Shown here: one piece after another, positions 14,621 to 32,684 of the stretch
Layout of the letters: every line of letters begins with the position of its first letter
How positions within the stretch are numbered: the stretch's first letter is position 1
Origin: Methanolobus sp. UBA118
Lineage (GTDB): Archaea > Halobacteriota > Methanosarcinia > Methanosarcinales > Methanosarcinaceae
DNA length: 38,437 nt
Assembly (NCBI GenBank): GCA_002508635.1
Contig: DACO01000145.1
Coordinates: 1 to 38,437, forward strand
Direction of reading: 5' to 3'
Program-made: the position numbers and the translations under genes
The notes under the pieces: model-generated
Database searches by the model: none
Seen by the model: the letters and a program-made list of their open reading frames with translations, nothing else
What the model was told of the DNA's origin: nothing

Positions 14621-14638
14621 TGGCCTTAATATTCAACT
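14621..14638 (-). promoter_or_regulatory. 18-bp island motif, copy A
   Basis: AGTTGAATATTAAGGCCA; TTTAAGAT 11 nt downstream; faces the ftr 3' end with no gene downstream. Confidence 0.5.
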
Positions 14639-14693
14639 AAATATTTCCAGTTAGCTTTGCTTGTTAATGTATGGGCCTTACCAGACAAATTTG

Positions 14694-14711
14694 AGTTGGA
14701 CATTGTGACCA
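14694..14711 (+). promoter_or_regulatory. 18-bp island motif, copy B
   Basis: AGTTGGACATTGTGACCA, 7 nt, then TAAATAAA; upstream of gene 14861. Confidence 0.7.
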
Positions 14712-14860
14712 TAAATAATAAATAAATTATGTGTAAATTGTAATTAATTTATTAACTGAATTTACAGTGTAGGAGCTTCCCTGTGACAAAAAATGTTCAA
14801 AAATCAAAATCTTCTGGGGGATTTTTTATCAGGTATATCAGCTTAATATGGAGTATTTAA

Positions 14861-15232
14861 ATGACAGAAAACCGAGGAAGATACCTGGTAATAATTGGTG
14901 GAGTTTTAGGTATCTTTGTAAGTTTAGGACTATACGGCTTAATTGAAGGGATAATAACCACCAATTATATAGCTATAGGCTTTATTTATTGTGCGACACC
15001 AGTACTGGGAATATCTGACCCAAAAACAGTGTTGGCAATCTATACATTTTCAGCAACAGCACTTGCAGTTATTGGAATCATAGCAGCTTACCGATTATCG
15101 GAAAACGTACGTAATTCTGCATTCATTATAATTGCATCTGGTTTGGCTGGATTCCTATTCATGGGCTTTTTGTGGATTCCAACGGGAATTTTGTTTGTAC
15201 TTGGTGGAATACTATTAATGAAAGATAATTAA
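14861..15232 (+). CDS. Small multi-pass membrane protein
   Basis: 123 aa, about 4 hydrophobic helices, GGAG RBS. Confidence 0.75.
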   Translation: MTENRGRYLVIIGGVLGIFVSLGLYGLIEGIITTNYIAIGFIYCATPVLGISDPKTVLAIYTFSATALAVIGIIAAYRLSENVRNSAFIIIASGLAGFLFMGFLWIPTGILFVLGGILLMKDN

Positions 15233-15271
15233 AGCTTGGTATCCCAACTTAGCATTTATGCAAATTGAAAA
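15233..15271 (+). repeat. About 38-bp direct repeat, copy 1
   Basis: AGCTTGGTATCCCAACTTAGCATTTATGCAAATTGAAAA; shares TCCCAACTTAGCAT and CAAATTGA with 15697-15734. Confidence 0.8.
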
Positions 15272-15311
15272 CTGATCATTGGAACTGATGCCTATAGGGA
15301 GGGCAATATTA

Positions 15312-15683
15312 GTGCCAAATGAGAAAAGAAAAATCGATGAAAATAAGGAACACCCATATGTTTCGATAGCAAAAGCATTTGGATTATTGATTGTTATATT
15401 TTTCCTACTCTCTGCAGCCTTTTTTGTGTGGAGTGGATACAACCACATAAATTCAAAGGAAATAGATGCCAGACTACTGGATGCTGTTCCCGATGAGTTT
15501 GTCATAGTTACGGAAGAGGAACTAAATGACTATCCATCACTCGAAAAAGCAATAGATACTCAGACTTATGTAAAAGCAAATCCTCATGAATGGAGCAAAA
15601 CAATAGATTTTCTTGACGAAAAGGGTTCGCATGTAATCAAATTCGAGAATGAATATTATCAAATCATGTTTATAACTGCATAG
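15312..15683 (+). CDS. Hypothetical protein with one TM anchor
   Basis: ORF 15279..15683; the GTG at 15312 follows GGGAGG; hydrophobic AFGLLIVIFFLLSAAFFVW then an acidic domain. Confidence 0.7.
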   Translation: MPNEKRKIDENKEHPYVSIAKAFGLLIVIFFLLSAAFFVWSGYNHINSKEIDARLLDAVPDEFVIVTEEELNDYPSLEKAIDTQTYVKANPHEWSKTIDFLDEKGSHVIKFENEYYQIMFITA

Positions 15684-15696
15684 GAGAGTACAGGAT

Positions 15697-15734
15697 AGCT
15701 GGTGTCCCAACTTAGCATATACAAATTGAGAAAA
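15697..15734 (+). repeat. About 38-bp direct repeat, copy 2
   Basis: AGCTGGTGTCCCAACTTAGCATATACAAATTGAGAAAA. Confidence 0.8.
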
Positions 15735-15808
15735 GCCTGAGAGCTTGCTTACAGGATACAAAATCAGATTAGAACTATATATCCTGCACTTTTTAAGTTT
15801 CTGGTTGA

Positions 15809-16537
15809 TTACAAAACTGGACTAATAGTCCTTATTTCTATTATCGATCCCCACATGTGGAAACTCATCATATCATCACGTGGATAAGCTGTGAATCTGA
15901 CTTCCGTTCCATCAATGCTAAAATCATCCGGTAGGTTCATCAGGTCATATCTTGTGTCATCAGTGCCCACTATTCCATAAAATCCGCCTTCAAGATCTTT
16001 GTACGTCACAGTTCCAGTAGTATTGATGAGTTCACTTTCTGGAATAACATCGATGGTCAGTTCATAGCCGTCTTCGGTTCCTGTAATTTCTTCCAATGGA
16101 CGCACATAAATCCCAGATATAACCTGTTCACCTGTTTCAGTGACTTCAAATATCCACATGTGATACCCTGGTGCTCCTGCCAGTTCTGCACCTATACTCG
16201 CTCCGAGGTATGCGTCTTCTTTAAGTTTGAGTCCTTCACTGTATGTCATTTCCCATGAGTATCCATTAGCGATGTTTTCTTCAAGTTCAACTATAATGGT
16301 ATCTCCAACAATAGCATAGGCAGCACTCTGGTTGTCATACTCTGAAAAATGATGATAGACTGTTGACATTGTGCCTATGGCAACGCCAGATTTATCGGTG
16401 ATTCCGTTTTGATCATCTACATATGGTGTTGCAGTGCTGTATGTGGATTCGTTATTTGTATTTGTATCAATGCAACCTGTAGTAGAGGCAAGCAGGAGGA
16501 CTAAAAATAGGCTTGCTATTATACTTATTGATTTCAT
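15809..16537 (-). CDS. Lipoprotein with I42 (chagasin-like) protease inhibitor domain
   Basis: Lipobox STTGC; GDTIIVELEENIANGYSW, GAPG..W.F and YVRPLE resemble I42 motifs; C-terminal GTVTYKDLEGGFYGI domain. Confidence 0.8.
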   Translation of the reverse strand: MKSISIIASLFLVLLLASTTGCIDTNTNNESTYSTATPYVDDQNGITDKSGVAIGTMSTVYHHFSEYDNQSAAYAIVGDTIIVELEENIANGYSWEMTYSEGLKLKEDAYLGASIGAELAGAPGYHMWIFEVTETGEQVISGIYVRPLEEITGTEDGYELTIDVIPESELINTTGTVTYKDLEGGFYGIVGTDDTRYDLMNLPDDFSIDGTEVRFTAYPRDDMMSFHMWGSIIEIRTISPVL

Positions 16538-16580
16538 CTAGCATCACGTATGCTTTTTTGTAGCTATTAGACCGAACAGG

Positions 16581-17177
16581 TCATTTTATAGATCTAGCCA
16601 CCTTTAAAGCCTCTTCCTTGCTAGTCGTAGCAACAACATACATTTGGACGTCTTCTACATCCCATATCAAGGTATGAGTCTGTGTAAATTCTATGTATAT
16701 AGCTTCATGTCCATTGATACTGACAGTTTCATCATTATCAGTTGCCTGATACTTGAAAGAATCATTATGATGAATCCTTTCACTGATATCTATAAAATCA
16801 GTATTGTTCTTGTACCATAAATCAACACTTTCCAAAACACCCTCTTGAGCTGTTCCATCAACGCTTTTATGAATATATGCATGAGTGAAATTATAACCTT
16901 CAGGAATATATGAAGGATAACTTACCTCAAAACTTGCTCTATCCTGCACTTCTTCCAGTGATAGACGAACAGGAGTTTCATTTTTATTTAAATTGCTTGT
17001 TTGTAGTTGAGCAATAGATAAATTTTCTTCCATCAAGGTAGAATCCTGTAGTTCCTTCTCTTTTTGAACATCTGTTTCTGCAGTTTCTTCTTGGTCGGTC
17101 TGTTCGTCTAAGCAACCTGCTGTAAAAAATACAGATAACAAAATCAATAAAACGATTAATATTTCCTTATTTCTCAT
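16581..17177 (-). CDS. Lipoprotein with DUF4367-like domain
   Basis: Lipobox FTAGC; PSYIPEGY, VSINGHEA, LIW and SKEEALKVARSI. Confidence 0.8.
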   Translation of the reverse strand: MRNKEILIVLLILLSVFFTAGCLDEQTDQEETAETDVQKEKELQDSTLMEENLSIAQLQTSNLNKNETPVRLSLEEVQDRASFEVSYPSYIPEGYNFTHAYIHKSVDGTAQEGVLESVDLWYKNNTDFIDISERIHHNDSFKYQATDNDETVSINGHEAIYIEFTQTHTLIWDVEDVQMYVVATTSKEEALKVARSIK

Positions 17178-17258
17178 AATTTATACCTACTCACTCTTAA
17201 AGTTCATTACATAATTAATTATTTTTAATGCATGGGTAATTATTTAATAATTACTTTA

Positions 17259-17276
17259 TGGCCATTTCATCAAACT
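17259..17276 (-). promoter_or_regulatory. 18-bp island motif, copy C
   Basis: AGTTTGATGAAATGGCCA, 8 nt, then TTATTAAATA; upstream of gene starting at 17177. Confidence 0.75.
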
Positions 17277-17345
17277 GTTTTCAAATTAAGATTTTTACGA
17301 AAAATTGACTCAGGCACTTGATCAGAAGTAGTGACTGATAGTTTC

Positions 17346-17363
17346 AGTTGGATGATGTGGCCA
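17346..17363 (+). promoter_or_regulatory. 18-bp island motif, copy D
   Basis: AGTTGGATGATGTGGCCA, 5 nt, then TTTTAATA; upstream of gene 17441. Confidence 0.75.
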
Positions 17364-17440
17364 AATATTTTTAATACAACAATTTCTTTTCTTTAGTAAG
17401 TAAGAATGTATTCTAAATTTAAAAGTAAAGAAGGGTGTGC

Positions 17441-18559
17441 ATGAAAAAGAAAGCTCTATTGGCATTGTTTTTAATCGGGTTGAGTATTTTCATATCAGGC
17501 TGCGTTGATGATGAGCTTACAGCTGAACAGATTGCAGAAAAACTACAGGAGAAACAGGCAAACATCGAAGATTATTCGGCAACAGTTCACATGACAGCTT
17601 CTGCAGACGGTCAAGTTCAAGAGATAGAATATGAGGTTGTTCAGAAAATGCCAGATAAATCAAGATCTGTTGTGGTGGAGCCAGATGAGCAGGCCGGTAT
17701 TGTAACAGTTTGTAATGGTGAGAACGTGTGGGTTTATGATCCTGCAAATGATGCTGTTATAACAGACAGCCCTGAAAGTACTGATACATCTGCGGTTGAT
17801 TATACAGGTATACCTGCAATCGATTATACGAGTTTTATAAGTGGAATGCTAAACGAAAGTCATGTTTCGATTGGAGGACTTGAAAGAATTGATGACAGAG
17901 ATGCTTATATAATCAGTATGGTGCAAAAAGATAATTCCAGTAAAGGAGGGCCTGTGATTGATGGGAAAATGTGGATTGACAAAGAAACATGGATGCCAGT
18001 AAAAATAGAGATGGCTAGAGATGATGGGTATCAGGTTATCGTAGAATATCAAAACTTCAAGGTTAATACGGGTATCTCGGATGAAGAGTTCGAGTTTGAG
18101 ATCCCTGAAGGGGCAAATGTCTTTGATTTACGGCGTCGTCCTGTGAAAATGACATTTGAGGAAGCACAGGATATATCAGAGTTTGAGATGCTGGTTCCTT
18201 CTTACATACCGGAAGGATATGAACCGGACAATGTTCAGTTCAGCAACGATTCGCTTGTAACTGGTCGAAAAGAATCGTTCACATTGATATATTCAAGTGA
18301 AGAACACAACATTGCAATATCCGAATATTTCTACGAAGAAGGAAAGGATTCGAGTTCATTACCAATGAAGGAAGGTGAAAAGGTTTTTGTCAATGGTGCA
18401 GAAGCCAATCTCTATGCCATGGATGGTGATAACAAGTGGTTAGAATGGAAAACCGAATATGTGACCATTCATATTAGAGGACCTCTTGATACTGAAGAGA
18501 TTATAAAAATTGCAGAATCGATGGATGTTCCAACTTCTATTGTTAAAAACGAAATGTAG
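17441..18559 (+). CDS. Lipoprotein: LolA/RseB-like beta-barrel plus DUF4367-like domain
   Basis: Lipobox FISGC; KMPDKSR, VCNGENVWVYDP, WIDKETWMPVK, NTGISDEEFEFEIPEGA; then PSYIPEGY...EEIIKIAESM; start at 17441 (ATG) or 17435. Confidence 0.85.
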   Translation: MKKKALLALFLIGLSIFISGCVDDELTAEQIAEKLQEKQANIEDYSATVHMTASADGQVQEIEYEVVQKMPDKSRSVVVEPDEQAGIVTVCNGENVWVYDPANDAVITDSPESTDTSAVDYTGIPAIDYTSFISGMLNESHVSIGGLERIDDRDAYIISMVQKDNSSKGGPVIDGKMWIDKETWMPVKIEMARDDGYQVIVEYQNFKVNTGISDEEFEFEIPEGANVFDLRRRPVKMTFEEAQDISEFEMLVPSYIPEGYEPDNVQFSNDSLVTGRKESFTLIYSSEEHNIAISEYFYEEGKDSSSLPMKEGEKVFVNGAEANLYAMDGDNKWLEWKTEYVTIHIRGPLDTEEIIKIAESMDVPTSIVKNEM

Positions 18560-18642
18560 TGTATTAGGAGGGAATATCAATAGAAAATAACAATTCGAAA
18601 AAAAAGGGATATTTTTCCCTGCTTCTATTTTGTGTTGGAATA

Positions 18643-18897
18643 GTGATTGGATTATTGGATTATTTGTATCTGGGAGAATATTTCATACTTATAACAATAC
18701 TGAGCTTTGCCGTGTTAGCTGCATCTATTGGGATGTTCTGGGAAAAACATAAAAGGATTTCAAAGTATCTATCAGTTCTTTTGCTGGCTACAGCTGGATT
18801 GTTCTTGTATTGGAGCACGGCTCGTATATTCTATGCTGTGCTGTCTCTTACTTTTGTTTTAATGGTCATTGTAGAGGACATGAGATTGACACGGTAG
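18643..18897 (+). CDS. Small membrane protein (about 3 TM)
   Basis: 84 aa hydrophobic ORF; start uncertain. Confidence 0.55.
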   Translation: MIGLLDYLYLGEYFILITILSFAVLAASIGMFWEKHKRISKYLSVLLLATAGLFLYWSTARIFYAVLSLTFVLMVIVEDMRLTR

Positions 18898-18969: not shown

Positions 18970-19641
18970 TTGACACTTAAATCAATAGCCAACAAAATAA
19001 ACATCCCTTTGTTATTGATATCATTTACATACTTAGCAATGTGGATTGTTGGACTAATTGGATTCGTATTATCTCAACTCGTATCCAGCTTAAACATCCC
19101 CTATGTAATAGCTGATTATTTCATCCTCACTCTCTTCTATATGCTCTCTATGATCCTTCCTATGATAGGAATCCTGCTGTATATGGATGATATAAGACCA
19201 GTCTCAAAGAGATGGTATCTGGCAATTCCCCTCTTGATTTCTGCATTCTTATTAACGTATGTCAGAGATAATCTTTATATGACATCTATATTTGGTGTCT
19301 CATTCATGTCTGCCAATGGTAGCTTACCCTTCTTAGAGACACAAATTGGACAAGGCCTTGTATCAATATTATTCTCAATATCTTCCATACTGCTCGTTCT
19401 CTCAATGCCGGATATCAGAAGAAAAGTACTGAGAATACCTTTTGCTCTATCCATAGTTATGACTATATCATTTTCCATTTACGTCATAGTAACCCAGGTT
19501 ATAAGAGCATACTATTCCGATGTTCAGATATTCGGAATTTTACACATCATCTGCATTCTGTTATTTGGTCTCTTTCTTAGCTGGTTTGCAGTCTTTGAGG
19601 AAGAACTTTTATCTCAATTCCCGGATGCAAAAAGAAAATAG
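18970..19641 (+). CDS. Multi-pass membrane protein (about 6 TM)
   Basis: 223 aa, TTG start after AGGAG. Confidence 0.75.
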   Translation: MTLKSIANKINIPLLLISFTYLAMWIVGLIGFVLSQLVSSLNIPYVIADYFILTLFYMLSMILPMIGILLYMDDIRPVSKRWYLAIPLLISAFLLTYVRDNLYMTSIFGVSFMSANGSLPFLETQIGQGLVSILFSISSILLVLSMPDIRRKVLRIPFALSIVMTISFSIYVIVTQVIRAYYSDVQIFGILHIICILLFGLFLSWFAVFEEELLSQFPDAKRK

Positions 19642-19776
19642 AAGGGAAACTCACTTTCTACTTCTAACCACGCAGAAAGCTCCCATTATCACAAAAATGA
19701 GATCTATGGGACTAAATGAAGACAAGTAATTATCTCCACTAGATCCCTGATATGTATTATTAAATATTGTTCTCTT
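19608..19776 (+). repeat. About 170-bp direct repeat, copy 1 (other copy 23119-23289)
   Basis: Long identical runs, e.g. CTCACTTTCTACTTCTAACCACGCAGAAAGCTCCCATTATCACAA; copy 1 has a 2-nt deletion. Confidence 0.92.
19651..19776 (-). pseudogene. Orphan 3' end of a NosD-type surface protein gene
   Basis: Translates NNTYQGSSGDNYLSSFSPIDLIFVIMGAFCVVRSRK*, nearly identical to the tail of 23162..24718; no 5' part. Confidence 0.85.
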
Positions 19777-19781
19777 GTTCT

Positions 19782-19877
19782 TTGAAATATCTTGCATTTG
19801 CAGATTTTACTGGTAATGGGAAGGTTGATGTTTTCAGGTCTTATGGAGGGCCTAATGTCGTGGTTTTTTTAACATAG
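19782..19877 (+). pseudogene. FG-GAP/VCBS-repeat gene fragment
   Basis: Translates LKYLAFADFTGNGKVDVFRSYGGPNVVVFLT* (DFxGxGxxD motif). Confidence 0.5.
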
Positions 19878-20090: not shown

Positions 20091-21392
20091 CTACATATAA
20101 TTGTTCGCAAAATGAGCTGTGCTTTCCAGCTGGGAGGAGGTGAAAAGTCCAAATATCTTGTCGATAGGGCCATGAGCTCTAATATCTTCTAATTCATAGA
20201 TGAATACTGCAGAATCTCCAAAATCCATTGTTTCGCCTAACTGAGTATAGTTAGCTCCTCCATCGACAGCTTTCTTCCATGTTTCATAATCGGTTATCCC
20301 GTCATAGTCGTCTTTTGCTTCAATTGTGATTGCTATCTGGTTGTTATTGTTTGAGAAGGCAATATCAGTTATTGTTGATGCGTAATGGCTCAGATATGAA
20401 TCCATTAGCAGTTCTTTTGAATCAACATCCCATACCCTTATTTTAGATTCATCAGTAGCTGCCATGTATTTTCCGGAAGGTGAGAGTGATAAATATTTAG
20501 TTGAATCCTGGAAGCCATTAAAGAAGTATATCTCTTCACCTGATGTTGCATTCCATAAGGTTACACCCCAGTTATATGAGGGCATTCTTACCCCTTTAAT
20601 ATAGAATGTATTCGGATACGAGAATCCTCTTGTCACAAAGAAGGATCCATTTGGCGAGAATTGTATATCAGAAACATATGCTGATGTTTCAATTACTTTC
20701 GTGGCTGCTCCACTTTCTACATCGAAGAAAACAACGTCCTTATCAAAACCTGCAACCAAGAACTTTCCATCGGGAGTATATGCAATAGATGATGGCATCT
20801 GATTTTTGTAGAAGAATTGCTGTGAAGATCTTCCTGGGGATATATTCCAGATTTCTATACCGAATTGGTTCTGATCTTCTGCCAGACTTTTTTCATAAGG
20901 TATGGCATAAGTCAAATTATCCGGGGAAAAAGCAGCATCGTATATTTCTTCGCTATCAAAATAATGTGTTCTGATTATTTCCCAATCACCTACACTATAT
21001 AGTGTTACTTGTGATTCGTCATCGAATGTTTTCGCCCAGGGATCATTTATCGAACACGCTACAAGGTATTTTCCATCCTGAGAGAATTCTAGGTCACTTA
21101 TCTCATCCGATTGTTTTTTGTCTATAAGTTTCATCATTCTACTCTGGTTGAATACACCAGCAGGTTCGTAAATTGTTACACCTTCTACAATATCCCATGC
21201 TCTGATACTTCCTCCTATTGAATCACCAACGACGATATACCTATCATCTGGAGAATAATCTATTGCAGAAAAATGACGATCATATGCATATGATGTTTTT
21301 ACAGGTTGAGAGACCTCATTCGTGGTCACTAAAGTAAAAAGTAAAATTATCAAGAATATAGCAACAATAAGCGTTTTGTTCGTTTTATCCAT
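20091..21392 (-). CDS. Secreted or membrane-anchored WD40/beta-propeller protein
   Basis: N-terminal hydrophobic helix; repeats YSPDD, FSQDG, FSPDN, YTPDG, FSPNG, LSPSG with AWD/IWN/LWN/VWD. Confidence 0.88.
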   Translation of the reverse strand: MDKTNKTLIVAIFLIILLFTLVTTNEVSQPVKTSYAYDRHFSAIDYSPDDRYIVVGDSIGGSIRAWDIVEGVTIYEPAGVFNQSRMMKLIDKKQSDEISDLEFSQDGKYLVACSINDPWAKTFDDESQVTLYSVGDWEIIRTHYFDSEEIYDAAFSPDNLTYAIPYEKSLAEDQNQFGIEIWNISPGRSSQQFFYKNQMPSSIAYTPDGKFLVAGFDKDVVFFDVESGAATKVIETSAYVSDIQFSPNGSFFVTRGFSYPNTFYIKGVRMPSYNWGVTLWNATSGEEIYFFNGFQDSTKYLSLSPSGKYMAATDESKIRVWDVDSKELLMDSYLSHYASTITDIAFSNNNNQIAITIEAKDDYDGITDYETWKKAVDGGANYTQLGETMDFGDSAVFIYELEDIRAHGPIDKIFGLFTSSQLESTAHFANNYM

Positions 21393-21880: not shown

Positions 21881-22717
21881 ATGGCCAGTGTTCATATCGT
21901 GTGTTGGAAGTGCGGAAAGAAGTTTGAATACATCCCCAATATTGTTCCAATTGTAAAAGGAGGAACAAAAAAAGCAGAGGCTGAGGAAGATATCGTCATC
22001 AGAGAGTGTCCATTCTGTAAAACAATGAATCGGTTTGAGTATGAAGAATCTTATAGTAGTGATCCCGAAGATGTCGTGATCTTAGGAAGGAATCCGTCTG
22101 GTATTGATACTGATGTTGAGTGGATTAAAAATGCCGGGAAAGAATATTTTACAAAATCACCTGATGCATTGAATGCTATAGCAAAGGATTTGGTTGCATT
22201 AAACAGTGCCTTAATAACTGCATACATAGCAGCTTTAACGTTACTTGGGCTTCCGGAGAGGGGGATTCTCTCATCGCCTGAATCGTTGATAATAATCGCT
22301 TTGCCTATCATTGCGTGGTTATTGGGTGCGGTAGGTGCTGCCGTTGCAGGGTTTACAAAAACAAAGATTAATCTTGATTCAACAGAAAGCATCAAAAAAG
22401 GACTCATGGATCTCGTTTCAAATAAAACCTATGCCATAGGATTTTCATACCTGTTTCTAGTCATTGGATTGGTCTTGGGGGCTTATGCTTTGGTTGGTCC
22501 GAGCTATGATACGACAACTCTTGATGATGTCCAGTTTATTGTTGGTAAAGATAATATAGCTGCATTTGAGAACATGTCTCTGCTTGAAAACAATCAGACA
22601 ATGATAACTGAACCAGTTACTCTGATCGATGAAAGCGAGAAGACTTATACGGTTCTCAAAAAGAATAATGAGACTGTTGTATTTAATAAAGATCAGGTAG
22701 TGGGAATCAAATATTAG
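21881..22717 (+). CDS. Hypothetical protein: N-terminal Zn ribbon plus about 3 TM helices
   Basis: CWKC...CPFC, hydrophobic segments, soluble C-terminus; AGGA RBS; T-tract after the stop. Confidence 0.8.
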   Translation: MASVHIVCWKCGKKFEYIPNIVPIVKGGTKKAEAEEDIVIRECPFCKTMNRFEYEESYSSDPEDVVILGRNPSGIDTDVEWIKNAGKEYFTKSPDALNAIAKDLVALNSALITAYIAALTLLGLPERGILSSPESLIIIALPIIAWLLGAVGAAVAGFTKTKINLDSTESIKKGLMDLVSNKTYAIGFSYLFLVIGLVLGAYALVGPSYDTTTLDDVQFIVGKDNIAAFENMSLLENNQTMITEPVTLIDESEKTYTVLKKNNETVVFNKDQVVGIKY

Positions 22718-22804: not shown

Positions 22805-22822
22805 TGAGCATTACATCCAACC
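22805..22822 (-). promoter_or_regulatory. 18-bp island motif, copy E
   Basis: GGTTGGATGTAATGCTCA, 7 nt, then TATATAAC; faces the 3' end of gene 21881..22717. Confidence 0.6.
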
Positions 22823-23044: not shown

Positions 23045-23062
23045 TGACCTTATCATCAAACT
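23045..23062 (-). promoter_or_regulatory. 18-bp island motif, copy F
   Basis: AGTTTGATGATAAGGTCA, 5 nt, then TTTAATAT; followed by an AGGTGA RBS and an ATG that stops after 7 codons. Confidence 0.6.
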
Positions 23063-23118: not shown

Positions 23119-23289
23119 TTTATCTCAATCCCCAGATACAAAAAGAAAATAGAAGGAAAACTCACTTTCTACTTCTAACCACGCAGAAAGCTCCCATTAT
23201 CACAAGAATGAGATACATGGGACTAAATGAAGACAAATAATTCCCCCTACTACCTCCCTGATACGTGTTATTATAAATATTGTTCTCTT
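23119..23289 (+). repeat. About 170-bp direct repeat, copy 2
   Basis: Contains an orphan tail LSQSPDTKRK* matching LSQFPDAKRK* of 18970..19641, plus the real 3' end of the NosD gene. Confidence 0.92.
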
Positions 23290-25390: not shown

Positions 25391-25398
25391 AGGGATTT

Positions 25399-25926
25399 TC
25401 ATAAGTTGAAAGGAATTTCTTCTGAAGATGCTTTCTGGAATCTCTGAACCTTATTTTGATAATCGGTTTGATTCTCAATTAAAAGATCACCGTAACCGGA
25501 AGGGAAAGTATATCCTCTTTCTTCATTTCCTTTGGTGACAAAAAGATAGGTTTCTCCCGGCTGGAGCAGTTCATCCCCTTCTCCAAGGGACAGATACTTC
25601 CAAACAAACACGGTCTCGTAGCCGCCAAACTGGTTTACGATGACATTTCCAGTAGCATTACCTTTTATCGTTTCCATGACCTCTACACTGAAATGGGTTT
25701 GCAGATATGGTTCTGTTGACGTGCCAACCTCTTCGATCACCTTACCAATAAATACATCACTGGCAAACCCGACCAATTCTCTATCATCGGAAACATTGAT
25801 AGCATAATCTATATGTGCGATTCCTCGTTCAGCGTCAAAGTAGTTTACCTGAACAAAATAAAAAGCCGTTCCCAGAAGTCCTGCAACAATTAAGAAGACT
25901 AAAAAAGTATTCAATTTGTTTGCCAT
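25399..25926 (-). CDS. Membrane-anchored extracytoplasmic protein
   Basis: One TM, then ELVGFASDVFIGKVI...VMETIKG...QFGG...LQPGETYLF; start at 25926 (ATG) or 25947. Confidence 0.78.
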   Translation of the reverse strand: MANKLNTFLVFLIVAGLLGTAFYFVQVNYFDAERGIAHIDYAINVSDDRELVGFASDVFIGKVIEEVGTSTEPYLQTHFSVEVMETIKGNATGNVIVNQFGGYETVFVWKYLSLGEGDELLQPGETYLFVTKGNEERGYTFPSGYGDLLIENQTDYQNKVQRFQKASSEEIPFNL

Positions 25927-25958
25927 GTGTCTTTTTTCAAATTGCAAATATACATATA

Positions 25959-26102
25959 CTATTCAATAGCAGGTTCTAGTTCTAATGCTTCATCCGGATA
26001 TTCGTTGATTTCAATGAACAGGAACTCTAAACTCAAATCTTCAGGGTATTCTCCTGTAATTTGTCTCTTTGTTATATTGTTGTCCAAGGTTATTTCGTAC
26101 AT
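25959..26102 (-). pseudogene. C-terminal remnant related to gene 28538..28936
   Basis: MYEITLDNNITKRQITGEYPEDLSLEFLFIEINE aligns by eye with ATLDDNSTVSQEIAYHPWNEMSIDIND. Confidence 0.45.
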
Positions 26103-26111
26103 ATAGTGTCT

Positions 26112-27770
26112 TTATCTCAAGTCGATATCTCCTCTAAGCCCTCCAAGCAATTCCCATTTTACTTCTCCATAAGAAGGATGTGGATATGGTAGTTCTCTTT
26201 TCAGCATGACCTCGACCAAAGCTTTATAGTTGTTTCCGGATTTCATATCAAGCGTATATTCATAATTATTGGATTCTAGATAATCCAGAACAACTTGTTC
26301 TTCATGCACCAATTTCATATTTCCACCACTTGAATTCATTCCGTCATCAAGCTTGGCTGTTTCTATCTGGACAAAGACCGGCAGGGTATCCGTCATTTCA
26401 CCATGTTGATCACTATGAGAAAAAGCATCTTTGTAGAGGTAATTCAGTTTCATTGAAATCATTACTCTTGAATATGTTTCGTTTATGGGAGTGGCGTTGG
26501 CTTCTAAATTCTCAACATAAACATTGTTTCCAGGCATATCTGCTTCGAATGGGAAGTACCAGATAATTGTCAGAATAAGGACTAAGATAGCAAGTACTAT
26601 CAATCCAGCAATACCTTTCTTCAACCAGGATAGGCCGAAGTAAAAAGCAATTATGGTTAGTACTATCAGAGTGATGATAAAAATGAGGATTTTTTGGAAT
26701 GGGCTGAAGTTTATGTTTTCAGAAGTATTGTCTGCAAATGAATTGTCTTCAATGGTATTTTTGTCGTCTGGATATCGATGATAAATCCCATATTCCTCAT
26801 TTGACCGAAACTTGTTATTTTTAATGATATTGTTGTCAGTGCTTTCTATTATGATTCCGTTCAGGTTGTTGTAGAAAGTGTTTTGTTCGAATATGTTATT
26901 TGAGCTCAGGGAAATTAAGCGTATTCCAGAGTCCTCATTTTCTGCAAAATGATTTTCTTTTACTGAATTCGAGTTTGATTGCCATAAATGAAGACCATAT
27001 TGCTTGTTCTCATTGAGATTGTTGCCAAATATTGTGTTTTTATCTGATGATGTCAATGCCAAACCGATATTATTGAGGATTAGTTCATTCTCTGTAATTG
27101 TGCTGGAAGAAGATTCCCTAAGGGCCATTCCATACATCTGATTATTGCTGATGTTATTATATTCAATGATTATCTGATCCGCTTCATCCACATAAAAACC
27201 ACGTTTGTTATCATGAATATTATTATTTTTCAGGCTGCTCAGTGTGGAATCAAGTAGATAAATCCCATGTTCAGTATTTGAGAGAATACTGTTATTTTGA
27301 ATATTGTTTCCAGAGGAATACCTGATATAAAGGCCATCTTGGGTGTTGCTAATGACGTTGTTTTGTATCCGTAAATTGTCTGCATTGTCTATTAGAATCC
27401 CGGCTGTGGGATGTGTATCATTTTGTCCTGTTATAGTTATGCCATCTATTTTTACATCATCCGAACGGATGTGAATTATAGGTGATGAAGAATCGTTGGA
27501 TTCAAGAATTACGTCCTTGGGATCAAGGGTAACAGAATATAGACCCACAGGTTTATCGATGGTAAGACTTTCAGTGTAGATTCCCTTACTGATGATTATG
27601 GAATCGTGTTCCTGAGCATGGTTGATTGCATCCTGTATTGAGGAAAAGGCATAACTGGTGTTGTTACTGTGCATGTCTACTGTGAATGTAGATGCAGAAG
27701 CACCACTTATGGTGAAAAGTAAAAGCATTAAGATAATGAGATTTACAGGCTTCATGTGTTTTTTGATCAT
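26112..27770 (-). CDS. NosD beta-helix protein with internal TM hairpin and extra C-terminal domain
   Basis: Signal peptide, FSSIQDAIN, many GIxL..S..N.I..N repeats, two TM helices near aa 360-405. Confidence 0.88.
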   Translation of the reverse strand: MIKKHMKPVNLIILMLLLFTISGASASTFTVDMHSNNTSYAFSSIQDAINHAQEHDSIIISKGIYTESLTIDKPVGLYSVTLDPKDVILESNDSSSPIIHIRSDDVKIDGITITGQNDTHPTAGILIDNADNLRIQNNVISNTQDGLYIRYSSGNNIQNNSILSNTEHGIYLLDSTLSSLKNNNIHDNKRGFYVDEADQIIIEYNNISNNQMYGMALRESSSSTITENELILNNIGLALTSSDKNTIFGNNLNENKQYGLHLWQSNSNSVKENHFAENEDSGIRLISLSSNNIFEQNTFYNNLNGIIIESTDNNIIKNNKFRSNEEYGIYHRYPDDKNTIEDNSFADNTSENINFSPFQKILIFIITLIVLTIIAFYFGLSWLKKGIAGLIVLAILVLILTIIWYFPFEADMPGNNVYVENLEANATPINETYSRVMISMKLNYLYKDAFSHSDQHGEMTDTLPVFVQIETAKLDDGMNSSGGNMKLVHEEQVVLDYLESNNYEYTLDMKSGNNYKALVEVMLKRELPYPHPSYGEVKWELLGGLRGDIDLR

Positions 27771-27774
27771 TGTG

Positions 27775-28515
27775 TCATTGATCCCGATATGTACCTTCCC
27801 CGGTTACAAGTTCACCTTCTCCTGCTATCCAACCATTTTGAGGTCCTGATAATTCTATTCTAATATAGTCTCTGTAATTGTTAGATGGCCATCCTGCAGC
27901 TTCTGCCCATTCATTAGTTCCACCCATATGAACGTCCATGGTGACAGTAGTATTCGGAGAAGTATCATAGTAGGCATATACCCTACCTTCATACCTGTAT
28001 GCATCAGCATCCCTTTGACTTGTGGTTTTACCTAGATAAGTGAGATTATACTTTGGTGCCAGAAGTGGCTCGTTGTTAATCGGGTCTCTAGTATCTATTG
28101 TATGTTCAGGGGATACTCCTGTACTAAACGAGAGAGGCATTGGATAGGTATCTGGGCCTTCTCCTCTGAGAACTAAGTGTGGCTCAAAATGATCAGTTTT
28201 CAGTGAAAGCATCAGTCCGTGTTCTGTTTCCACAAGTGCAGTTTTCCATTCGGAACGGGGGCCTCTATAACTGTTGTTCACGATTTTTTGTCCCACACAA
28301 GATGTATTGTTCATTGTTGGGAGTGGAACATAGAGAGTTACGTTGTTCAGAGGTGAGTATATATACAAAATAGCATCATAATCATAATGGCTCATGTAAT
28401 TTCTTTCATACATTTCCTGCTCCTGTCCTTGCCACCAAAAAGAAAGCAGGCCAACAGAAATAATCAACAACATTATGAAGCCAATTCCTAGTTTGTAAAG
28501 AGTCCTCATATTCAC
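27775..28515 (-). CDS. Membrane-anchored hypothetical protein
   Basis: 246 aa, N-terminal TM, NVTLYVPLP; 4 nt from the next gene (operon). Confidence 0.8.
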   Translation of the reverse strand: MNMRTLYKLGIGFIMLLIISVGLLSFWWQGQEQEMYERNYMSHYDYDAILYIYSPLNNVTLYVPLPTMNNTSCVGQKIVNNSYRGPRSEWKTALVETEHGLMLSLKTDHFEPHLVLRGEGPDTYPMPLSFSTGVSPEHTIDTRDPINNEPLLAPKYNLTYLGKTTSQRDADAYRYEGRVYAYYDTSPNTTVTMDVHMGGTNEWAEAAGWPSNNYRDYIRIELSGPQNGWIAGEGELVTGEGTYRDQ

Positions 28516-28537
28516 AATCCTGATATCAGAGTATAAT

Positions 28538-28936
28538 TCAAACTGTTATCTCACCTATTGATAACTCATTGTCATTGATATCAATCGACATTTCGTTCCA
28601 CGGATGATAGGCAATCTCCTGGGAGACAGTACTATTATCGTCAAGTGTTGCCACTACAAGATATCCACTTTCAGTTCCTTTAAACAATGTCCTGAAAACC
28701 ATTAAAAGTGGCTTTTTTTCTGTAATTCTTTCATCGGATTCGACAACGTACTGTTCCTTGAGCATGGATTGATTAGTAGGGCCAAATATCTCAACTGTCA
28801 CCTCATGAGTTGTAACATCCTGATTCCAAATGCTAAATAACGGAGTTGGTGATCCGACAAAAATGAAAGGGAAGACTACAAAGAAAAATACTAGCACTAT
28901 CACAAGGCCGATGATTATTTTGTGATAAGTTTTGAT
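28538..28936 (-). CDS. Membrane-anchored hypothetical protein (possible ATC start)
   Basis: ORF 28538..28903 extends in frame to an ATC at 28936, 5 nt after GGAGGTG, giving xKTYHKIIIGLVIVLVFFF. Confidence 0.7.
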   Translation of the reverse strand: MKTYHKIIIGLVIVLVFFFVVFPFIFVGSPTPLFSIWNQDVTTHEVTVEIFGPTNQSMLKEQYVVESDERITEKKPLLMVFRTLFKGTESGYLVVATLDDNSTVSQEIAYHPWNEMSIDINDNELSIGEITV

Positions 28937-29034
28937 ACTGCCACCTCCTAACTTATGCTAATTTATTGTGGTAAACATATGATACTTGTATATGTTCGTT
29001 ATTTTAAGTAAGCTTATTCATTCATATAGGACGA

Positions 29035-29631
29035 TTATTCTAATCCTGTCCACACCTGAACAACCGTACTGGTATCCATATCGACAAGAGCAGATATCGA
29101 AATGTCCAGCCATGTTACACTGATCAGAGTCTTTCCGGTATAGAATTTCTCCGAGGTCTTTGGTAGTATTTGTTTTACGGAAGGATCTCCCTTAATTTGC
29201 ATACCGGAATCCATAGCACTGGCAATTTCTTCGTTCTCAATGGCCAGAACAATAGCTTCAGAACGGACAGATTCAGGAATAGCTTCAAGGATATATCCGG
29301 CGAGTATCAGCTCATCGTCATGATATGTAAAGTCATATCTGTCAGCATATCTTGAATCAGGGGAAGAAGCTGTAGCATGTATGTGTATTTTGTTACTCTC
29401 CTCTGATGCGCTGAGTGTTATGTTATCGTATTCTATACCAGGATAAGGACTGAGCTGTTGAGCGATGTCTTCCTCGATCTTATCAAAGTCTGCAGGAGTT
29501 GTGCCAATCCATTGGAATTCATTAACAGAAGAAGAAGGAGTGGAATCTGTCAGGGAAAAAATACCGGCGGAGAGAAAAATCATTATCAATATGGCTATGG
29601 ACATTTTAGAAATATGGACCATGGATTTCAC
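29035..29631 (-). CDS. Secreted hypothetical protein
   Basis: 198 aa, signal or TM helix, then a soluble acidic domain. Confidence 0.75.
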   Translation of the reverse strand: MKSMVHISKMSIAILIMIFLSAGIFSLTDSTPSSSVNEFQWIGTTPADFDKIEEDIAQQLSPYPGIEYDNITLSASEESNKIHIHATASSPDSRYADRYDFTYHDDELILAGYILEAIPESVRSEAIVLAIENEEIASAMDSGMQIKGDPSVKQILPKTSEKFYTGKTLISVTWLDISISALVDMDTSTVVQVWTGLE

Positions 29632-29680
29632 CTGAAAAGAGAGACGGACATATCAGTATGTCCGTGCACCATGCTTATTT

Positions 29681-30961
29681 TCAATCTCCGATAGTTATGG
29701 AATATTCAAACCTTTCTATATTGACTGGAAGTATGCTTAATGTCCATTCTCCGATGGAACCTGATGTATCATATGTCTCTACGTATGATTCCGTAACTTC
29801 CTGATAAATTCCGGCACCATCGATCTCCCAGGGTGGATAGGAGGAAGCTCCGAGACTTACGGTACCGCTATAAGTAGTTTTAACCAGGTTTAGTTCAACA
29901 TCACCTGATCCATTCTGGAGTGTCAGGTCAAAAGAAGGATCTTCATTTTGGTTTTGGCTGTCTGCTTCCATCCATCTGTCATAATTGTAAGTATTGGTGG
30001 ATACCTCTATAATTATAGGATTATTGGTCTGGGTTGTGAATACCTTGGTGTAAGTTTCAGTAGGCTGGGTCCATACTTCAAATTCCAACGATACTTCATC
30101 ATCCCACTCATCTATTGAAGGATCGTCAATGTCCAGATCAATAGAGCCGAAATATGTTCCTTTTGCATCATCTGGTACTTCAAGGTGTACGTTCACAACA
30201 GCCGTTTCTCCTGCTTTTACAACAGAAGGAGCGGTGATGCTGATTGCATCGTTTTCAAATGCAAGTGAACTTGTTCCGTAGATACTGGAAAAATACCGTT
30301 GTTCGTCACTAAACTCCGGATCGATCCCAATATCATGGTCACCTATATTCTTAAGCTTGATCTCATAATCATATACTTCTCCTGATTCGACACGGTCACT
30401 TACATATGGTGTTTGTATCTGAATGTTCGGAGGAGTCCATACTTCGATAAAGAAGTGCATGGCATTGATATATTGTGGATAGACTGAATATGTTTGCGGC
30501 ATTACATCATCTGTAAATGCAATATCAGCCCCGTAATTTCCAATATCTGCGTCTTCAGGAATGTCCACCGTAATTATAAATTCTACCTTTTCATCTGGTT
30601 CCAGGTCTTTGCTGGCAGGTGTTATGCTGATCCAGCTTTCATCAAAGAGGTTTTGTTCATAAGCAGTTGGAACCATTTTTGGTTCGAGCGTGATTGTTTT
30701 ATTATCTTTGTTAGTCACTGTTACTGAGATCTCATCATTGCTCCCCGGTTTTAACCGAGTGTTCGAATAAGTCGGATTGATATTAAGTTTTGCAAAAGTT
30801 ATATCCTGGTATAGTATTGATTCATCATTAACTTCAATCACTTCCGCCTCTGAGGTCGAGTACATTTTAACATCTGCGCTGACAACAGGCGAAAAAGCAA
30901 GTCCGATGAGTAGCATTGAAACAATTAAGCTGTGTATTCGTATTCTTTCCTTGTTGTGCAT
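29681..30961 (-). CDS. Secreted protein with two Ig-like (COG1470-type) domains
   Basis: Signal peptide ending VSA; internal duplication (LKPG...VTVTN...VDIPEDADIGNYGADI...EVWT and VESG...IKLKN...LEVPDDAKGTYFGSI...EVWT); GAGG RBS. Confidence 0.82.
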   Translation of the reverse strand: MHNKERIRIHSLIVSMLLIGLAFSPVVSADVKMYSTSEAEVIEVNDESILYQDITFAKLNINPTYSNTRLKPGSNDEISVTVTNKDNKTITLEPKMVPTAYEQNLFDESWISITPASKDLEPDEKVEFIITVDIPEDADIGNYGADIAFTDDVMPQTYSVYPQYINAMHFFIEVWTPPNIQIQTPYVSDRVESGEVYDYEIKLKNIGDHDIGIDPEFSDEQRYFSSIYGTSSLAFENDAISITAPSVVKAGETAVVNVHLEVPDDAKGTYFGSIDLDIDDPSIDEWDDEVSLEFEVWTQPTETYTKVFTTQTNNPIIIEVSTNTYNYDRWMEADSQNQNEDPSFDLTLQNGSGDVELNLVKTTYSGTVSLGASSYPPWEIDGAGIYQEVTESYVETYDTSGSIGEWTLSILPVNIERFEYSITIGD

Positions 30962-31095
30962 ATTTATCCTCTTCTTGATTTGATCAGTTTGCCCACTGGT
31001 TCGGAATTTAGACTCTTTATTAAATTTAATTTCTAGTATACAACATTATTTTTAATGTGTTATATGCAGTTGTAATCTGACTTATAAATTAATTA

Positions 31096-31113
31096 TGGCC
31101 ATAACATCAAACT
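31096..31113 (-). promoter_or_regulatory. 18-bp island motif, copy G
   Basis: AGTTTGATGTTATGGCCA, 7 nt, then TTTATAAG; heads the long minus-strand gene run starting at 30961. Confidence 0.78.
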
Positions 31114-31160
31114 ATTTAGGTAGTCTATCGGACGTTAAATGGTTGTAAAGAGATATTTAC

Positions 31161-31178
31161 AGTTGGACGATTCGGCCA
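31161..31178 (+). promoter_or_regulatory. 18-bp island motif, copy H
   Basis: AGTTGGACGATTCGGCCA, 7 nt, then TTTATAAG; upstream of 31243. Confidence 0.78.
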
Positions 31179-31242
31179 TAAGTAGTTTATAAGAACTATG
31201 TTATTTTTTAATAATTTAATAAAGAAGTTAACAAGGATACAT

Positions 31243-31365
31243 ATGGCAAAGAGATCATTATTGATATTATTCTTAATAGGTCTGAACCTGCTCATATCAG
31301 GCTGCTTTGATGAAGGTTTCACAGCTGAGCAGATTGCTCAGAAGAAACGGAGTAAAGGAATATGA
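31243..31365 (+). pseudogene. Truncated paralogue of the LolA-like lipoprotein 17441..18559
   Basis: MAKRSLLILFLIGLNLLISGCFDEGFTAEQIAQK versus MKKKALLALFLIGLSIFISGCVDDELTAEQIAEK; stops after 40 aa, overlapping the next ATG. Confidence 0.85.
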
Positions 31366-31757
31366 ACACAAGAAGAATAGCATTGAGTTTGTTGATCATG
31401 GCAGTGTTTTTCCTTATGATAGCCGTAACTATGGAAGATGTCAAGGAGGAAGATGAAGAAATGCCATCAACTCCCTGGTTTGAAACGGGAGATGAATTAG
31501 GAGATGAATTGAGTCGCCTTTCGACAGATGAACTCCGTGAACTGGCTAAGACAAACGAATCCGTGCGAGAACTTATCGAAGAGGATATGAAGATTGATCC
31601 AGTTAAGATTGAATCCATTGAAGATTTGGAGCATTTACCTGAAAATTATCCTGAGGAATTGAAAAGGAAGTATCTTGAAGATTTGGGATATGCACCTAGT
31701 AATCAATCGCTAGAAGATGCAGAGTCAAATAATACAAGTATGTATCATTTGAGCTGA
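31362..31757 (+). CDS. Small acidic secreted or membrane-anchored protein
   Basis: 131 aa; N-terminal hydrophobic helix, then a very Glu/Asp-rich domain. Confidence 0.7.
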   Translation: MNTRRIALSLLIMAVFFLMIAVTMEDVKEEDEEMPSTPWFETGDELGDELSRLSTDELRELAKTNESVRELIEEDMKIDPVKIESIEDLEHLPENYPEELKRKYLEDLGYAPSNQSLEDAESNNTSMYHLS

Positions 31758-32518
31758 GAATAATACCTTCTGGACCTGCCATCTTTTTCAGTGCAGATAA
31801 AATCATCCTTTTTAAGTTCTGTTATGTGCCAGTGTACTGTACTTTTGTCGATGTTGAGATGTGAGGACAACTCCTGTCCGGTGATACCCGGCCTTTCAGT
31901 TATAGTCTGAATTATTTGTTTACGGTTTTTGTTCTTCCTGTGAAGATGAAGTAGCTTTTGACCATCAGTTTTTGAACAAGTGATGTGGAATATACCTTTT
32001 ATCTTACCTTTTTTAATAGTCTGTATACGATTATCAGAGACCAGTCTTGAGATATAGTACCTAAGAGTACCTCGTTTTATATCCAGATCTCTGGATATCT
32101 CGGATTCCAGACAGCCGGGATTCTCAGTTATGTAAGAAACAATTTCCTGCAGTTTTGGATTTATATCCCTGGATAGTATTTTTCCAAGTAAGATCGGGAA
32201 GCATTTCAGTAGTGTAAGCGTAGAGAATGCAGCTCCGCTTATAACAGATAGTTGTATCCACAAAGGCAGTTCCCAGAAAGTGATAGTTTTATCAGCTCCA
32301 CTGCTTTTAACTATCTCGTCTTCACCTATTGGTCCGACTGCCGGGGTTACGATGTAACCACCATTATCATCAGGATGAAATATTTCTAATGGATGCAACA
32401 GAAGGAAAAATGGGTCCCTATTAATGAGATCATTACCATTCAAAGTGCAAACTGATAGTATAGTTACTAAAATAGCTAACAGGATAATTCCTTTTTTAAT
32501 GATTGAAACCGTTTTCAT
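31745..32518 (-). CDS. Membrane-anchored transcriptional regulator with two winged-helix domains (COG3398-like)
   Basis: TM1 (IILLAILVTILSV), loop GGYIVTP...GAD..ITFWELPLW, TM2, then ENPGCLESEISRDLDIKRGTLRYYISRL and RPGITGQELSSHLNIDKSTVHWHITEL with wing KDGRSRRY. Confidence 0.88.
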   Translation of the reverse strand: MKTVSIIKKGIILLAILVTILSVCTLNGNDLINRDPFFLLLHPLEIFHPDDNGGYIVTPAVGPIGEDEIVKSSGADKTITFWELPLWIQLSVISGAAFSTLTLLKCFPILLGKILSRDINPKLQEIVSYITENPGCLESEISRDLDIKRGTLRYYISRLVSDNRIQTIKKGKIKGIFHITCSKTDGQKLLHLHRKNKNRKQIIQTITERPGITGQELSSHLNIDKSTVHWHITELKKDDFICTEKDGRSRRYYSQLK

Positions 32519-32666
32519 AATCTTAGAATATTGTCCATTATACTACCAAAAAAATCATACCCGATGCACCAGTAAATACAGAACTTAGTAGTAAACCCCG
32601 TTTGTGTCCTGTCATAATTTTTTATATTTATCGCTCAGAAAATTTTCTAAAGAGATATATTCTTTT

Positions 32667-32684
32667 TGGCCATAATGTCCAACT
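32667..32684 (-). promoter_or_regulatory. 18-bp island motif, copy I (upstream of the regulator)
   Basis: AGTTGGACATTATGGCCA, 7 nt, then TATAT; about 150 nt before the regulator start. Confidence 0.75.

What the first reader, a model, noticed from the sequence alone, without database searches (positions are those of the whole stretch)
14621..32684. Nine copies of an 18-bp promoter-proximal motif point to a regulon of a membrane-tethered tandem-wHTH regulator
Seen in sequence, oriented copies: A 14621- AGTTGAATATTAAGGCCA; B 14694+ AGTTGGACATTGTGACCA; C 17259- AGTTTGATGAAATGGCCA; D 17346+ AGTTGGATGATGTGGCCA; E 22805- GGTTGGATGTAATGCTCA; F 23045- AGTTTGATGATAAGGTCA; G 31096- AGTTTGATGTTATGGCCA; H 31161+ AGTTGGACGATTCGGCCA; I 32667- AGTTGGACATTATGGCCA. 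All are intergenic and inside the island. In eight of nine a TATA-like box follows the 3' end by 5-8 nt (exactly 7 nt in B, E, G, H, I). The core is a pseudo-palindrome (TGGACAT-T-ATGGCCA in I) with an asymmetric AGT extension, which suits a protein with two non-identical wHTH domains. Copy I precedes the only regulator in the island (31745..32518), which has two TM helices and an external loop. Established: binding just upstream of the BRE is the geometry of TFB-recruiting archaeal activators such as Pyrococcus TFB-RF1. Inference: an autoregulated, one-component membrane sensor activates a set of envelope proteins. I do not know of a described operator for this family.
Basis: partly seen in the sequence, partly recalled or inferred. 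Interest (0 to 1): 0.88.

Follow-up and report, generated by a model that had tools for sequence, protein, structure and literature searches.

The report
Operator of membrane-anchored archaeal surface regulator
An 18-base DNA signal sits at an exact distance before the core promoters of secreted-protein genes in this methanogen, recurs in front of the same membrane-anchored DNA-binding protein in three archaeal classes and changes when that protein changes, so it is likely that protein's docking site and likely marks an undescribed switch for archaeal cell-surface genes.

Summary
All nine copies are present as described and exceed chance. The genome is probably Methanolobus. The motif lies within 800 bp upstream of 28 of 30 homologues of the regulator 31745-32518 and follows the family into Methanoperedens, Methanomicrobiales and Archaeoglobi. 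Variants track protein clades: Archaeoglobi keep the TATA-proximal half and change the distal half (15 of 17 loci); one paralogue clade has a 17-bp form. Of 130 first downstream genes, 116 start with a hydrophobic segment; several are proteases or protease inhibitors. Corrections: only six of nine sites face a gene; more sites lie outside the island; the last two bases belong to the BRE, which is strong, unlike TFB-RF1 targets; the first 'TM' is usually signal-peptide-like; a secreted jelly-roll partner gene precedes the regulator in 53 of 89 loci, though not here. Binding, activation versus repression, and the signal are inferred, not shown. Three complete genomes keep single sites without an intact regulator. 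I found no description of this operator in ten literature searches. Verdict: real, a new variant of the transmembrane-regulator class, and directly testable.

The parts
14621..14638 (-). Site A: orphan copy; points into the 3' end of ftr, no TATA at the family spacing; likely the relic half of a divergent pair
   Evidence: in L031 the equivalent of site B is paired with a site that faces a beta-helix gene
14694..14711 (+). Site B with BRE-TATA at the family offset; 167 nt before 14861-15232
14861..15683 (+). Two small membrane proteins behind site B (123 aa; 134 aa), no Pfam family
15809..17177 (-). Genes behind site C: DUF4367 lipoprotein-like protein (16581-17177) and chagasin-family I42 protease inhibitor (15809-16537)
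17259..17276 (-). Site C; 99 nt before 17177; its best TATA placement is 5 nt further than usual
17346..17363 (+). Site D; divergent partner of C; 95 nt before the ATG of the LolA-like gene
17435..18559 (+). LolA-like plus DUF4367 lipoprotein-like protein (weak MucB/RseB N-terminal hit, below cut-off)
22805..22822 (-). Site E: weakest copy, TATA at the family offset, but points into the 3' end of 21881-22717(+); orphan
23045..23062 (-). Site F: followed by an SD-like sequence and a 7-codon frame only; likely promoter of a decayed gene
25399..30961 (-). Run of six co-oriented secreted or membrane proteins behind site G (first gene 29681-30961; includes beta-helix protein 26112-27770); one operon is inferred, not shown
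31096..31113 (-). Site G; 152 nt before 30961
31161..31178 (+). Site H; divergent partner of G; precedes a truncated LolA/DUF4367 remnant (about 31243-31356) and 31362-31757
31745..32518 (-). Regulator, 257 aa: hydrophobic N-terminal helix (3-25), disordered external segment, TM helix (about 86-115), wHTH1 (121-178, helix RGTLRYY), wHTH2 (197-254, helix KSTVHWH); PF24266 and PF13412
32654..32668 (-). BRE (motif positions 17-23) and TATA box (24-31) of the regulator's promoter; start of transcription predicted near 32631
   Evidence: TATA at -23 to -30 from the Fig. S3 legend of PMC5378194
32667..32684 (-). Site I: operator in front of the regulator, 166 nt before its ATG

Best explanation
The 18-mer abuts and shares two bases with the BRE at a fixed distance from the TATA box, and it is likely the binding site of the membrane-anchored tandem-wHTH protein at 31745-32518 and its paralogues, which likely switch on their own operons and a set of secreted-protein genes. 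Shown: sequence, fixed geometry, co-occurrence and co-variation with the family, secreted targets. Inferred: one protein chain covers the site with two unlike wHTH domains, wHTH1 on the TATA-proximal half (TGGNCA) and wHTH2 on the distal half (AGTTGGA); bound next to TFB it would stabilise TFB-TBP on promoters with a good BRE and a soft 5' TATA edge (activation about 0.65, given binding). Least certain: the input. I favour a co-component sensor acting from the membrane, in which the short ectodomain and the secreted jelly-roll partner report on extracellular proteolysis or surface-protein state (about 0.35), over release by proteolysis (about 0.3) or another signal.
For: Site upstream of 28 of 30 homologues at 34-100% identity, the two misses having truncated upstream DNA. 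Same site with homologues in Methanoperedens and Methanogenium. De novo Archaeoglobi motif ATTCTCAAnATATGGTCA with the same proximal half and spacing in 15 of 17 loci; there wHTH1 keeps R[GS]TLRYH and the wHTH2 helix differs. A 17-bp form goes with one paralogue clade (10 of 11 rows) in genomes that also hold 18-bp paralogues; on a quick tree of 106 proteins the 18-bp label needs 7 changes (shuffled 31.2), the 17-bp label 4 (11.5), the Archaeoglobi label 3 (7.9); helix-to-helix spacing is 76 aa in 44 of 44 K-type and 77-78 aa in 14 of 14 proteins of the 17-bp clade. Genome level: strict pattern in 31 of 60 genomes with the family and 3 of 61 without; Archaeoglobi 16 of 21 against 11 of 75; reversed-pattern controls 0; kin are not independent. 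Five regulators of one clade whose wHTH1 Arg is replaced (LGSIRYQ) have TA or similar in place of GG in their own upstream site. Targets: 116 of 130 first ORFs with an N-terminal hydrophobic segment against 401 of 1783 in G000 (47 of the 130 are the partner and regulator clusters); S8, C39, M12 peptidases, serpin, I42 inhibitor, LolA/DUF4367, beta-helix proteins. Fixed orientation, 105 against 3, is what a contact with the basal machinery needs. Partner gene directly upstream in 53 of 89 loci; its model is closest to the Tk-SP subtilisin jelly-roll region.
Against: No binding or expression data. The BRE is stronger than generic and overlaps the site, which fits steric repression and not the TFB-RF1 pattern. 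Single-contig or apparently complete genomes G062, G152 and G165 each have one good site and no intact membrane regulator found. 38 of 106 regulators have no same-strand site within 1.3 kb, among them Methanocella, one Methanoperedens clade and most of the YWQFLL clade, where a TGTTAGAGA variant was seen in only 6 of 27. Next to the LGSIRYQ regulators the divergent sites keep GG, so that change may be promoter decay. Co-variation rests on few clade-level events and the tree is the quick one. 30 of 160 sites have no ORF of 70 aa or more within 330 nt. The partner gene is not beside this window's regulator; the only copy found in G000 is at the C146 paralogue. The TATA comparison uses a generic set chosen for high scores, which biases it.
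Confidence: 0.62

Rival explanations
1. Same protein and same site, but a repressor: it covers the BRE and blocks TFB until an envelope signal leads to its cleavage or release from DNA.
For: The last two bases are BRE positions and the BRE and TATA core are near consensus. The pseudo-palindrome puts the proximal half-site on positions 14-18, and in Archaeoglobi on 16-21, inside the BRE (sequence). PMC5937170 states that regulators bound within the promoter hinder TFB or TBP.
Against: Base-exact spacing and one orientation over more than 100 sites and three classes are stricter than occlusion needs; divergent promoters carry two separate oriented sites, only 10 bp apart in 20 of 43 pairs; genes behind sites often decay, with no sign either way from expression.
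Confidence: 0.22
2. The motif is read by another factor (a soluble tandem-wHTH homologue, another regulator or an alternative TFB), and the membrane regulator is only one of the targets.
For: Orphan sites in G062, G152, G165; G062 has a soluble tandem-wHTH homologue. A co-inherited target would also co-occur with the motif.
Against: Four loci of non-membrane or divergent homologues (L119, L122, L126, L128) have no site upstream; G003, G046 and G009, where only such weak matches were found, have no pattern hit. Variants follow paralogue clades inside single genomes, which one shared factor would not produce.
Confidence: 0.1
3. The copies are remnants of duplicated promoter cassettes or recombination sites of a mobile island, without a cognate regulator.
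For: The island is low in GC, holds gene remnants, and A and I lie at its two ends in one orientation with 29 nt at 86% identity.
Against: Flanks of the other copies are unrelated; the motif is tied to BRE-TATA spacing and is kept between classes; no tRNA or Rfam hit in the window and no recombinase among 40 ORFs scanned.
Confidence: 0.04

Closest known systems
Transmembrane transcription regulators (TTRs; Demey et al. 2023, PMC10269533, passages read)
   Same: DNA-binding domain plus TM segment; the paper finds TTRs enriched in Methanomicrobia and few validated; ArnR is the archaeal entry seen in its Table 1 passage.
   Different: No operator, partner or regulon for this family appeared in the passages read; its supplements were not opened.
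TFB-RF1 (PF1088) of Pyrococcus furiosus (PMC5937170, passages read)
   Same: Site just upstream of BRE-TATA at a conserved distance; regulates its own operon.
   Different: TFB-RF1 binds the palindrome TCTG-N5-CAGA before a weak BRE; here the site is oriented, overlaps a strong BRE, and the protein has two wHTH domains and a TM helix.
ArnR/ArnR1 of Sulfolobus acidocaldarius (PMC6396743, passages read)
   Same: Membrane-bound archaeal regulators of surface-structure genes.
   Different: ArnR has an N-terminal HTH, HAMP and sensing domains, two C-terminal TMs and needs two inverted-repeat boxes; here the topology is reversed, with tandem wHTH at the C-terminus and one site per promoter.
ToxR-ToxS / VtrA-VtrC co-component systems (as summarised in PMC10269533)
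   Same: Membrane regulator with an adjacent gene for a small extracytoplasmic partner.
   Different: Those partners often have a lipocalin-like fold; this one models as a jelly roll like that of Tk-SP. The N-terminal position of the ToxR DNA-binding domain is recalled, not from a call.
Bacterial ECF sigma regulons (sigmaE-RseA-RseB; recalled)
   Same: Logic only: autoregulated, several paralogues with distinct promoter elements, targets in envelope proteolysis, LolA/RseB-like and DUF4367 proteins among the targets.
   Different: No sigma domains; works beside TBP and TFB.
'Cold box' of Methanolobus psychrophilus R15 (PMC5378194; passages, section 16 and the PDF supplement text read; Fig. S7 is a picture)
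   Same: Conserved motif upstream of BRE-TATA in the same genus.
   Different: It precedes nine near-identical sRNAs; the one homologue of those sRNAs found in G000 (C85) has no such motif before its TATA box. The box sequence itself could not be read.

Membership tests
TTR class | DNA-binding domain plus at least one TM segment | tested here: met
   PF13412 and PF24266 above cut-off; helix 86-115 hydrophobic and modelled
TTR class | Regulates transcription from the membrane | not testable with these tools
   needs localisation and expression experiments
HTH_HVO_0163_N (PF24266) tandem-wHTH proteins | PF24266 domain followed by a second wHTH | tested here: met
   52.2 bits against cut-off 31, two stretches; two wHTH folds in the model; Atlas neighbours of homologue P0003 share it
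TFB-RF1-type activator | Site immediately upstream of BRE at a conserved distance | tested here: met
   102 of 138 unbiased hits at one offset; site overlaps the BRE by two bases
TFB-RF1-type activator | Weak BRE | tested here: not met
   BRE sub-score median 3.1 against 1.8 for generic promoters
TFB-RF1-type activator | Palindromic TCTG-N5-CAGA site | tested here: not met
   oriented site, 105 against 3; different sequence
TFB-RF1-type activator | Recruits TFB | not testable with these tools
   needs EMSA with TBP and TFB
ArnR | N-terminal HTH, HAMP, sensing domain, two C-terminal TMs | tested here: not met
   against the description
ArnR | Paired TCGAC-N5-GTCGA boxes | tested here: not met
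   one different oriented site per promoter
ToxR/ToxS-like co-component system | Adjacent conserved gene for an extracytoplasmic partner | tested here: inconclusive
   met in 53 of 89 family loci, not at this window's locus
ToxR/ToxS-like co-component system | Lipocalin-like partner fold | tested here: not met
   best Foldseek matches are jelly-roll-bearing subtilases and GOLD domains
ECF sigma factor | Sigma region 2 and 4 domains | tested here: not met
   no such family among 17 Pfam and 15 NCBIfam hits
Cold box (M. psychrophilus) | Lies before the conserved cold-induced sRNA family | tested here: inconclusive
   one homologue in G000 lacks the motif; figure unreadable

The most novel reading that the evidence does not exclude
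This family is an archaeal functional counterpart of ECF sigma factors: membrane-tethered, paralogue-specific promoter-selection factors whose two wHTH domains read a modular two-half code fused to the BRE, gated by a secreted jelly-roll partner that shares the GYxVxP N-terminal peptide with the sensor's ectodomain, and driving an extracytoplasmic protease and inhibitor programme whose mRNAs often carry a dedicated structured leader.
Probability: 0.25. Interest if true: 0.88.

Novelty: new variant of a known kind. Interest (0 to 1): 0.66.

Why it matters
Archaea lack sigma factors (established knowledge), and ArnR is the only archaeal entry I saw in the table of validated membrane-bound regulators. 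This gives an exact operator, natural specificity variants that predict which domain reads which half, a candidate partner and a target list for a family found in 60 of 121 sampled genomes of this family and 21 of 96 Archaeoglobi-class genomes. How methanogens sense and remodel their surface, and how a regulator works next to TFB from the membrane, become testable with a gel shift, a domain swap and a deletion.

Tried and rejected
Complex prediction of partner (A4) with the regulator's ectodomain and TM (A5): no answer, score 0.27 against a mark of 0.32; not used either way. Sequencing runs: no RNA holder listed, so no start sites were mapped. The R15 TSS tables (S3, S6) are Excel files not held with the paper, and Fig. 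S7 is a picture; they may bear on spacing, expression and the cold-box question. First motif search in four other clades returned mostly signal-peptide coding DNA and was replaced by an anchored search. A regex for the YWQFLL clade was too strict (4 of 31); the revised one found 6 of 27. Foldseek of the regulator gave only generic wHTH matches with TM-scores near 0.2, including RPC34-type chains; no TFE/C34 relation is claimed. The profile search of 1.84 billion representatives never left the queue, so the family's full range is unmeasured. The careful tree did not finish; the quick tree was used, on 106 of 141 proteins (rows with under 900 bp upstream or truncated were left out). The M50-CBS gene at 35359-36450 was considered as releasing protease and set aside: it lies in the flanking backbone (same order in L031). 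Literature: ten searches; none listed a paper on this operator or family; the library lacks most subscription papers. No Rfam or tRNA hit in the window.
Full report
Observation. The nine 18-mers are present letter for letter and all are intergenic. They lie in a low-GC stretch from about 14.5 to 32.7 kb whose genes are mostly secreted or membrane proteins. The nearest named homologues of the regulator are from Methanolobus, so the genome is probably of that genus; it is 70.55% complete. A matrix made only from 15 sites of other genera ranks six window sites and three sites on contigs C168 and C126 as the nine best of the genome; A, B and E fall lower. C126 carries a paralogous regulator beside two of those sites, and C146 a third paralogue.

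Which genes the sites face. B, C, D, G, H and I lie 82-170 nt before a reading frame; H first meets a truncated LolA/DUF4367 copy. A points into the end of ftr, E into the end of a convergent gene, and F precedes only a 7-codon frame. In the related locus L031 the equivalent of B is paired with a site that faces an intact gene, so A is best read as a relic. Outside the island C168:9718+ also faces no gene.

Promoter geometry. A generic BRE-TATA model learned from 809 upstream regions of G000 fits 26 of 30 family sites at one offset, with the TATA box at motif positions 24-31 and the BRE at 17-23. To avoid circularity I selected 138 hits on positions 1-15 alone; C17, A18, A20 and A21 appear at 0.82, 0.96, 0.95 and 0.91, the model fits at the same offset in 102, and the core promoter lies on the 3' side in 105 and on the other side in 3. 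The BRE scores above generic promoters and the first two TATA bases below them; the second comparison is biased by how the generic set was chosen. TFB-RF1 acts at weak BREs through a palindrome (PMC5937170, passages), so the position matches and the defining weakness does not.

Who binds it. The motif lies within 800 bp upstream of 28 of 30 best homologues in the family (the 30 include the window's own; 26 have it in the regulator's orientation, three of these weakly) and beside homologues in Methanoperedens and Methanogenium. In Archaeoglobi an unsupervised search returned ATTCTCAAnATATGGTCA followed by GAAA and TATA in 15 of 17 loci: same proximal half, same spacing, new distal half. Their wHTH1 recognition helix resembles ours and their wHTH2 helix does not. 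A paralogue clade including C146 has a 17-bp form and a linker one or two residues longer; G000 has five such sites before its own set of genes, three of them on C146. On a quick tree the variants follow protein clades, also within single genomes. A strict pattern occurs in 31 of 60 genomes with the family and 3 of 61 without; in the Archaeoglobi class 16 of 21 against 11 of 75; kin are not independent and many of these genomes are incomplete. Against: G062, G152 and G165 keep one site each without an intact regulator found; 38 of 106 regulators have no same-strand site; the YWQFLL clade shows a possible variant in only 6 of 27. I put direct binding by this family at about 0.88; the domain-to-half assignment is an inference from few events.

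The protein. The model has an N-terminal helix, a disordered segment (26-76), a TM helix and two confident wHTH domains. In 39 of 39 aligned homologues a lenient rule finds a signal-peptidase-like site after the first helix, leaving an ectodomain of median 27 residues before the conserved FW[ED]LP and TM; this is a heuristic, not SignalP, and the window's protein has an insertion and no clear site. In 53 of 89 loci with full upstream DNA a conserved secreted protein of about 150 aa lies directly upstream, behind the site. It has no Pfam family, models as a beta-sandwich closest to the Tk-SP subtilisin structures, and many copies begin with a GYxVxP peptide like the one that opens the regulator's ectodomain. 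In G000 it is found only at the C146 paralogue.

The regulon. Of 160 distinct sites in all fetched loci, 130 have an ORF within 330 nt and 116 of these start with a hydrophobic segment, against 401 of 1783 in G000. The loci were chosen around regulators or pattern hits, and 47 of the 130 fall in the partner and regulator clusters. Of 33 representatives scanned, 13 had Pfam hits, among them S8, C39 and M12 peptidases, a serpin, LolA/DUF4367 and beta-helix proteins; the window adds an I42 inhibitor. Two unannotated targets show a GDSGAP serine-protease-like motif (motif meaning recalled). A conserved leader of about 120 nt with two hairpins follows a site in all 3 copies found genome-wide in G000 and in 66 of 98 hits overall (which includes partial reverse-strand hits); 9 of 18 predicted pairs show compensatory change; one locus tested gave no Rfam match. 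No copy lies in the window.

Mechanism. Most likely the regulator binds as one chain with two wHTH domains across the oriented site, contacts TFB and turns on itself, its partner and a programme of secreted proteases, inhibitors and surface proteins. Base-exact spacing and fixed orientation favour activation; the strong, overlapped BRE keeps repression at about one in four. The signal is not known; I favour a partner-gated sensor of extracellular proteolysis or surface state.

Known and new. The protein is a TTR by definition (PMC10269533, passages) and a PF24266 member; it is not an ArnR (PMC6396743, passages) or a TFB-RF1. The 'cold box' of M. psychrophilus (PMC5378194; passages, section 16, PDF supplement text) is probably different, on one homologue only. 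Ten searches listed no paper on this operator; other papers were seen as listings only. Earlier AI notes report similar membrane tandem-wHTH regulators with promoter motifs in other archaea; they are leads, were not checked, and are not counted as support. The labels COG3398, ECF/RseB and genus names for unnamed handles are recalled or inferred.

Noticed in passing
G000 C168:9383-9511(-), C126:10388-10514(+), C171:3151-3270(+); L148:6503-6628 and many loci: Conserved two-hairpin 5' leader of about 120 nt between family sites and the ribosome-binding site; compensatory changes in 9 of 18 pairs; no Rfam match in one locus tested; internal ATGA/CTGA resemble kink-turn boxes (recalled, untested). 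Not in the window.
   Followed up: partly
G000 C146:1433-, 3360-, 3607-; C168:9562-; C126:10321+: 17-bp variant sites, a candidate separate regulon of the C146 paralogue, which keeps the partner gene.
   Followed up: partly
window 19608-19788 and 31218-31356: Gene remnants: C-terminus of the beta-helix gene 23162-24718 (89% over 160 nt) and N-terminus of the LolA/DUF4367 gene; the island is decaying or reshuffling.
   Followed up: partly
window 21881-22717 (+): 278-aa ORF with an N-terminal Cys-pair motif and several hydrophobic segments, no Pfam or NCBIfam hit and no site in front; looks like a separate insertion between island genes.
   Followed up: no
window 21661 (-): Weak tenth copy upstream of the WD40 gene 20091-21392, without a TATA box at the family spacing.
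   Followed up: no
G000 C85:about 5613: Homologue of the cold-induced sRNA family of M. psychrophilus R15, with its own conserved-looking upstream sequence; a way to read the real cold box.
   Followed up: partly
L141-L145: Repeated cassettes of secreted C39-like peptidase genes, each with a divergent site pair whose second site faces a short gene fragment.
   Followed up: no
L167, L173, L131: A site directly precedes a soluble winged-helix gene in two Archaeoglobi loci (followed by a LolA-like gene in L173); a similar gene lies near the cluster in L131; possible regulatory cascade.
   Followed up: no
L156:18618-19034: Partial ftr copy at the edge of the related island, suggesting that rearrangements use the ftr boundary.
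   Followed up: no
L021, L025, L134, L168, L172: Regulator copies broken by stops or truncation while their sites persist.
   Followed up: no
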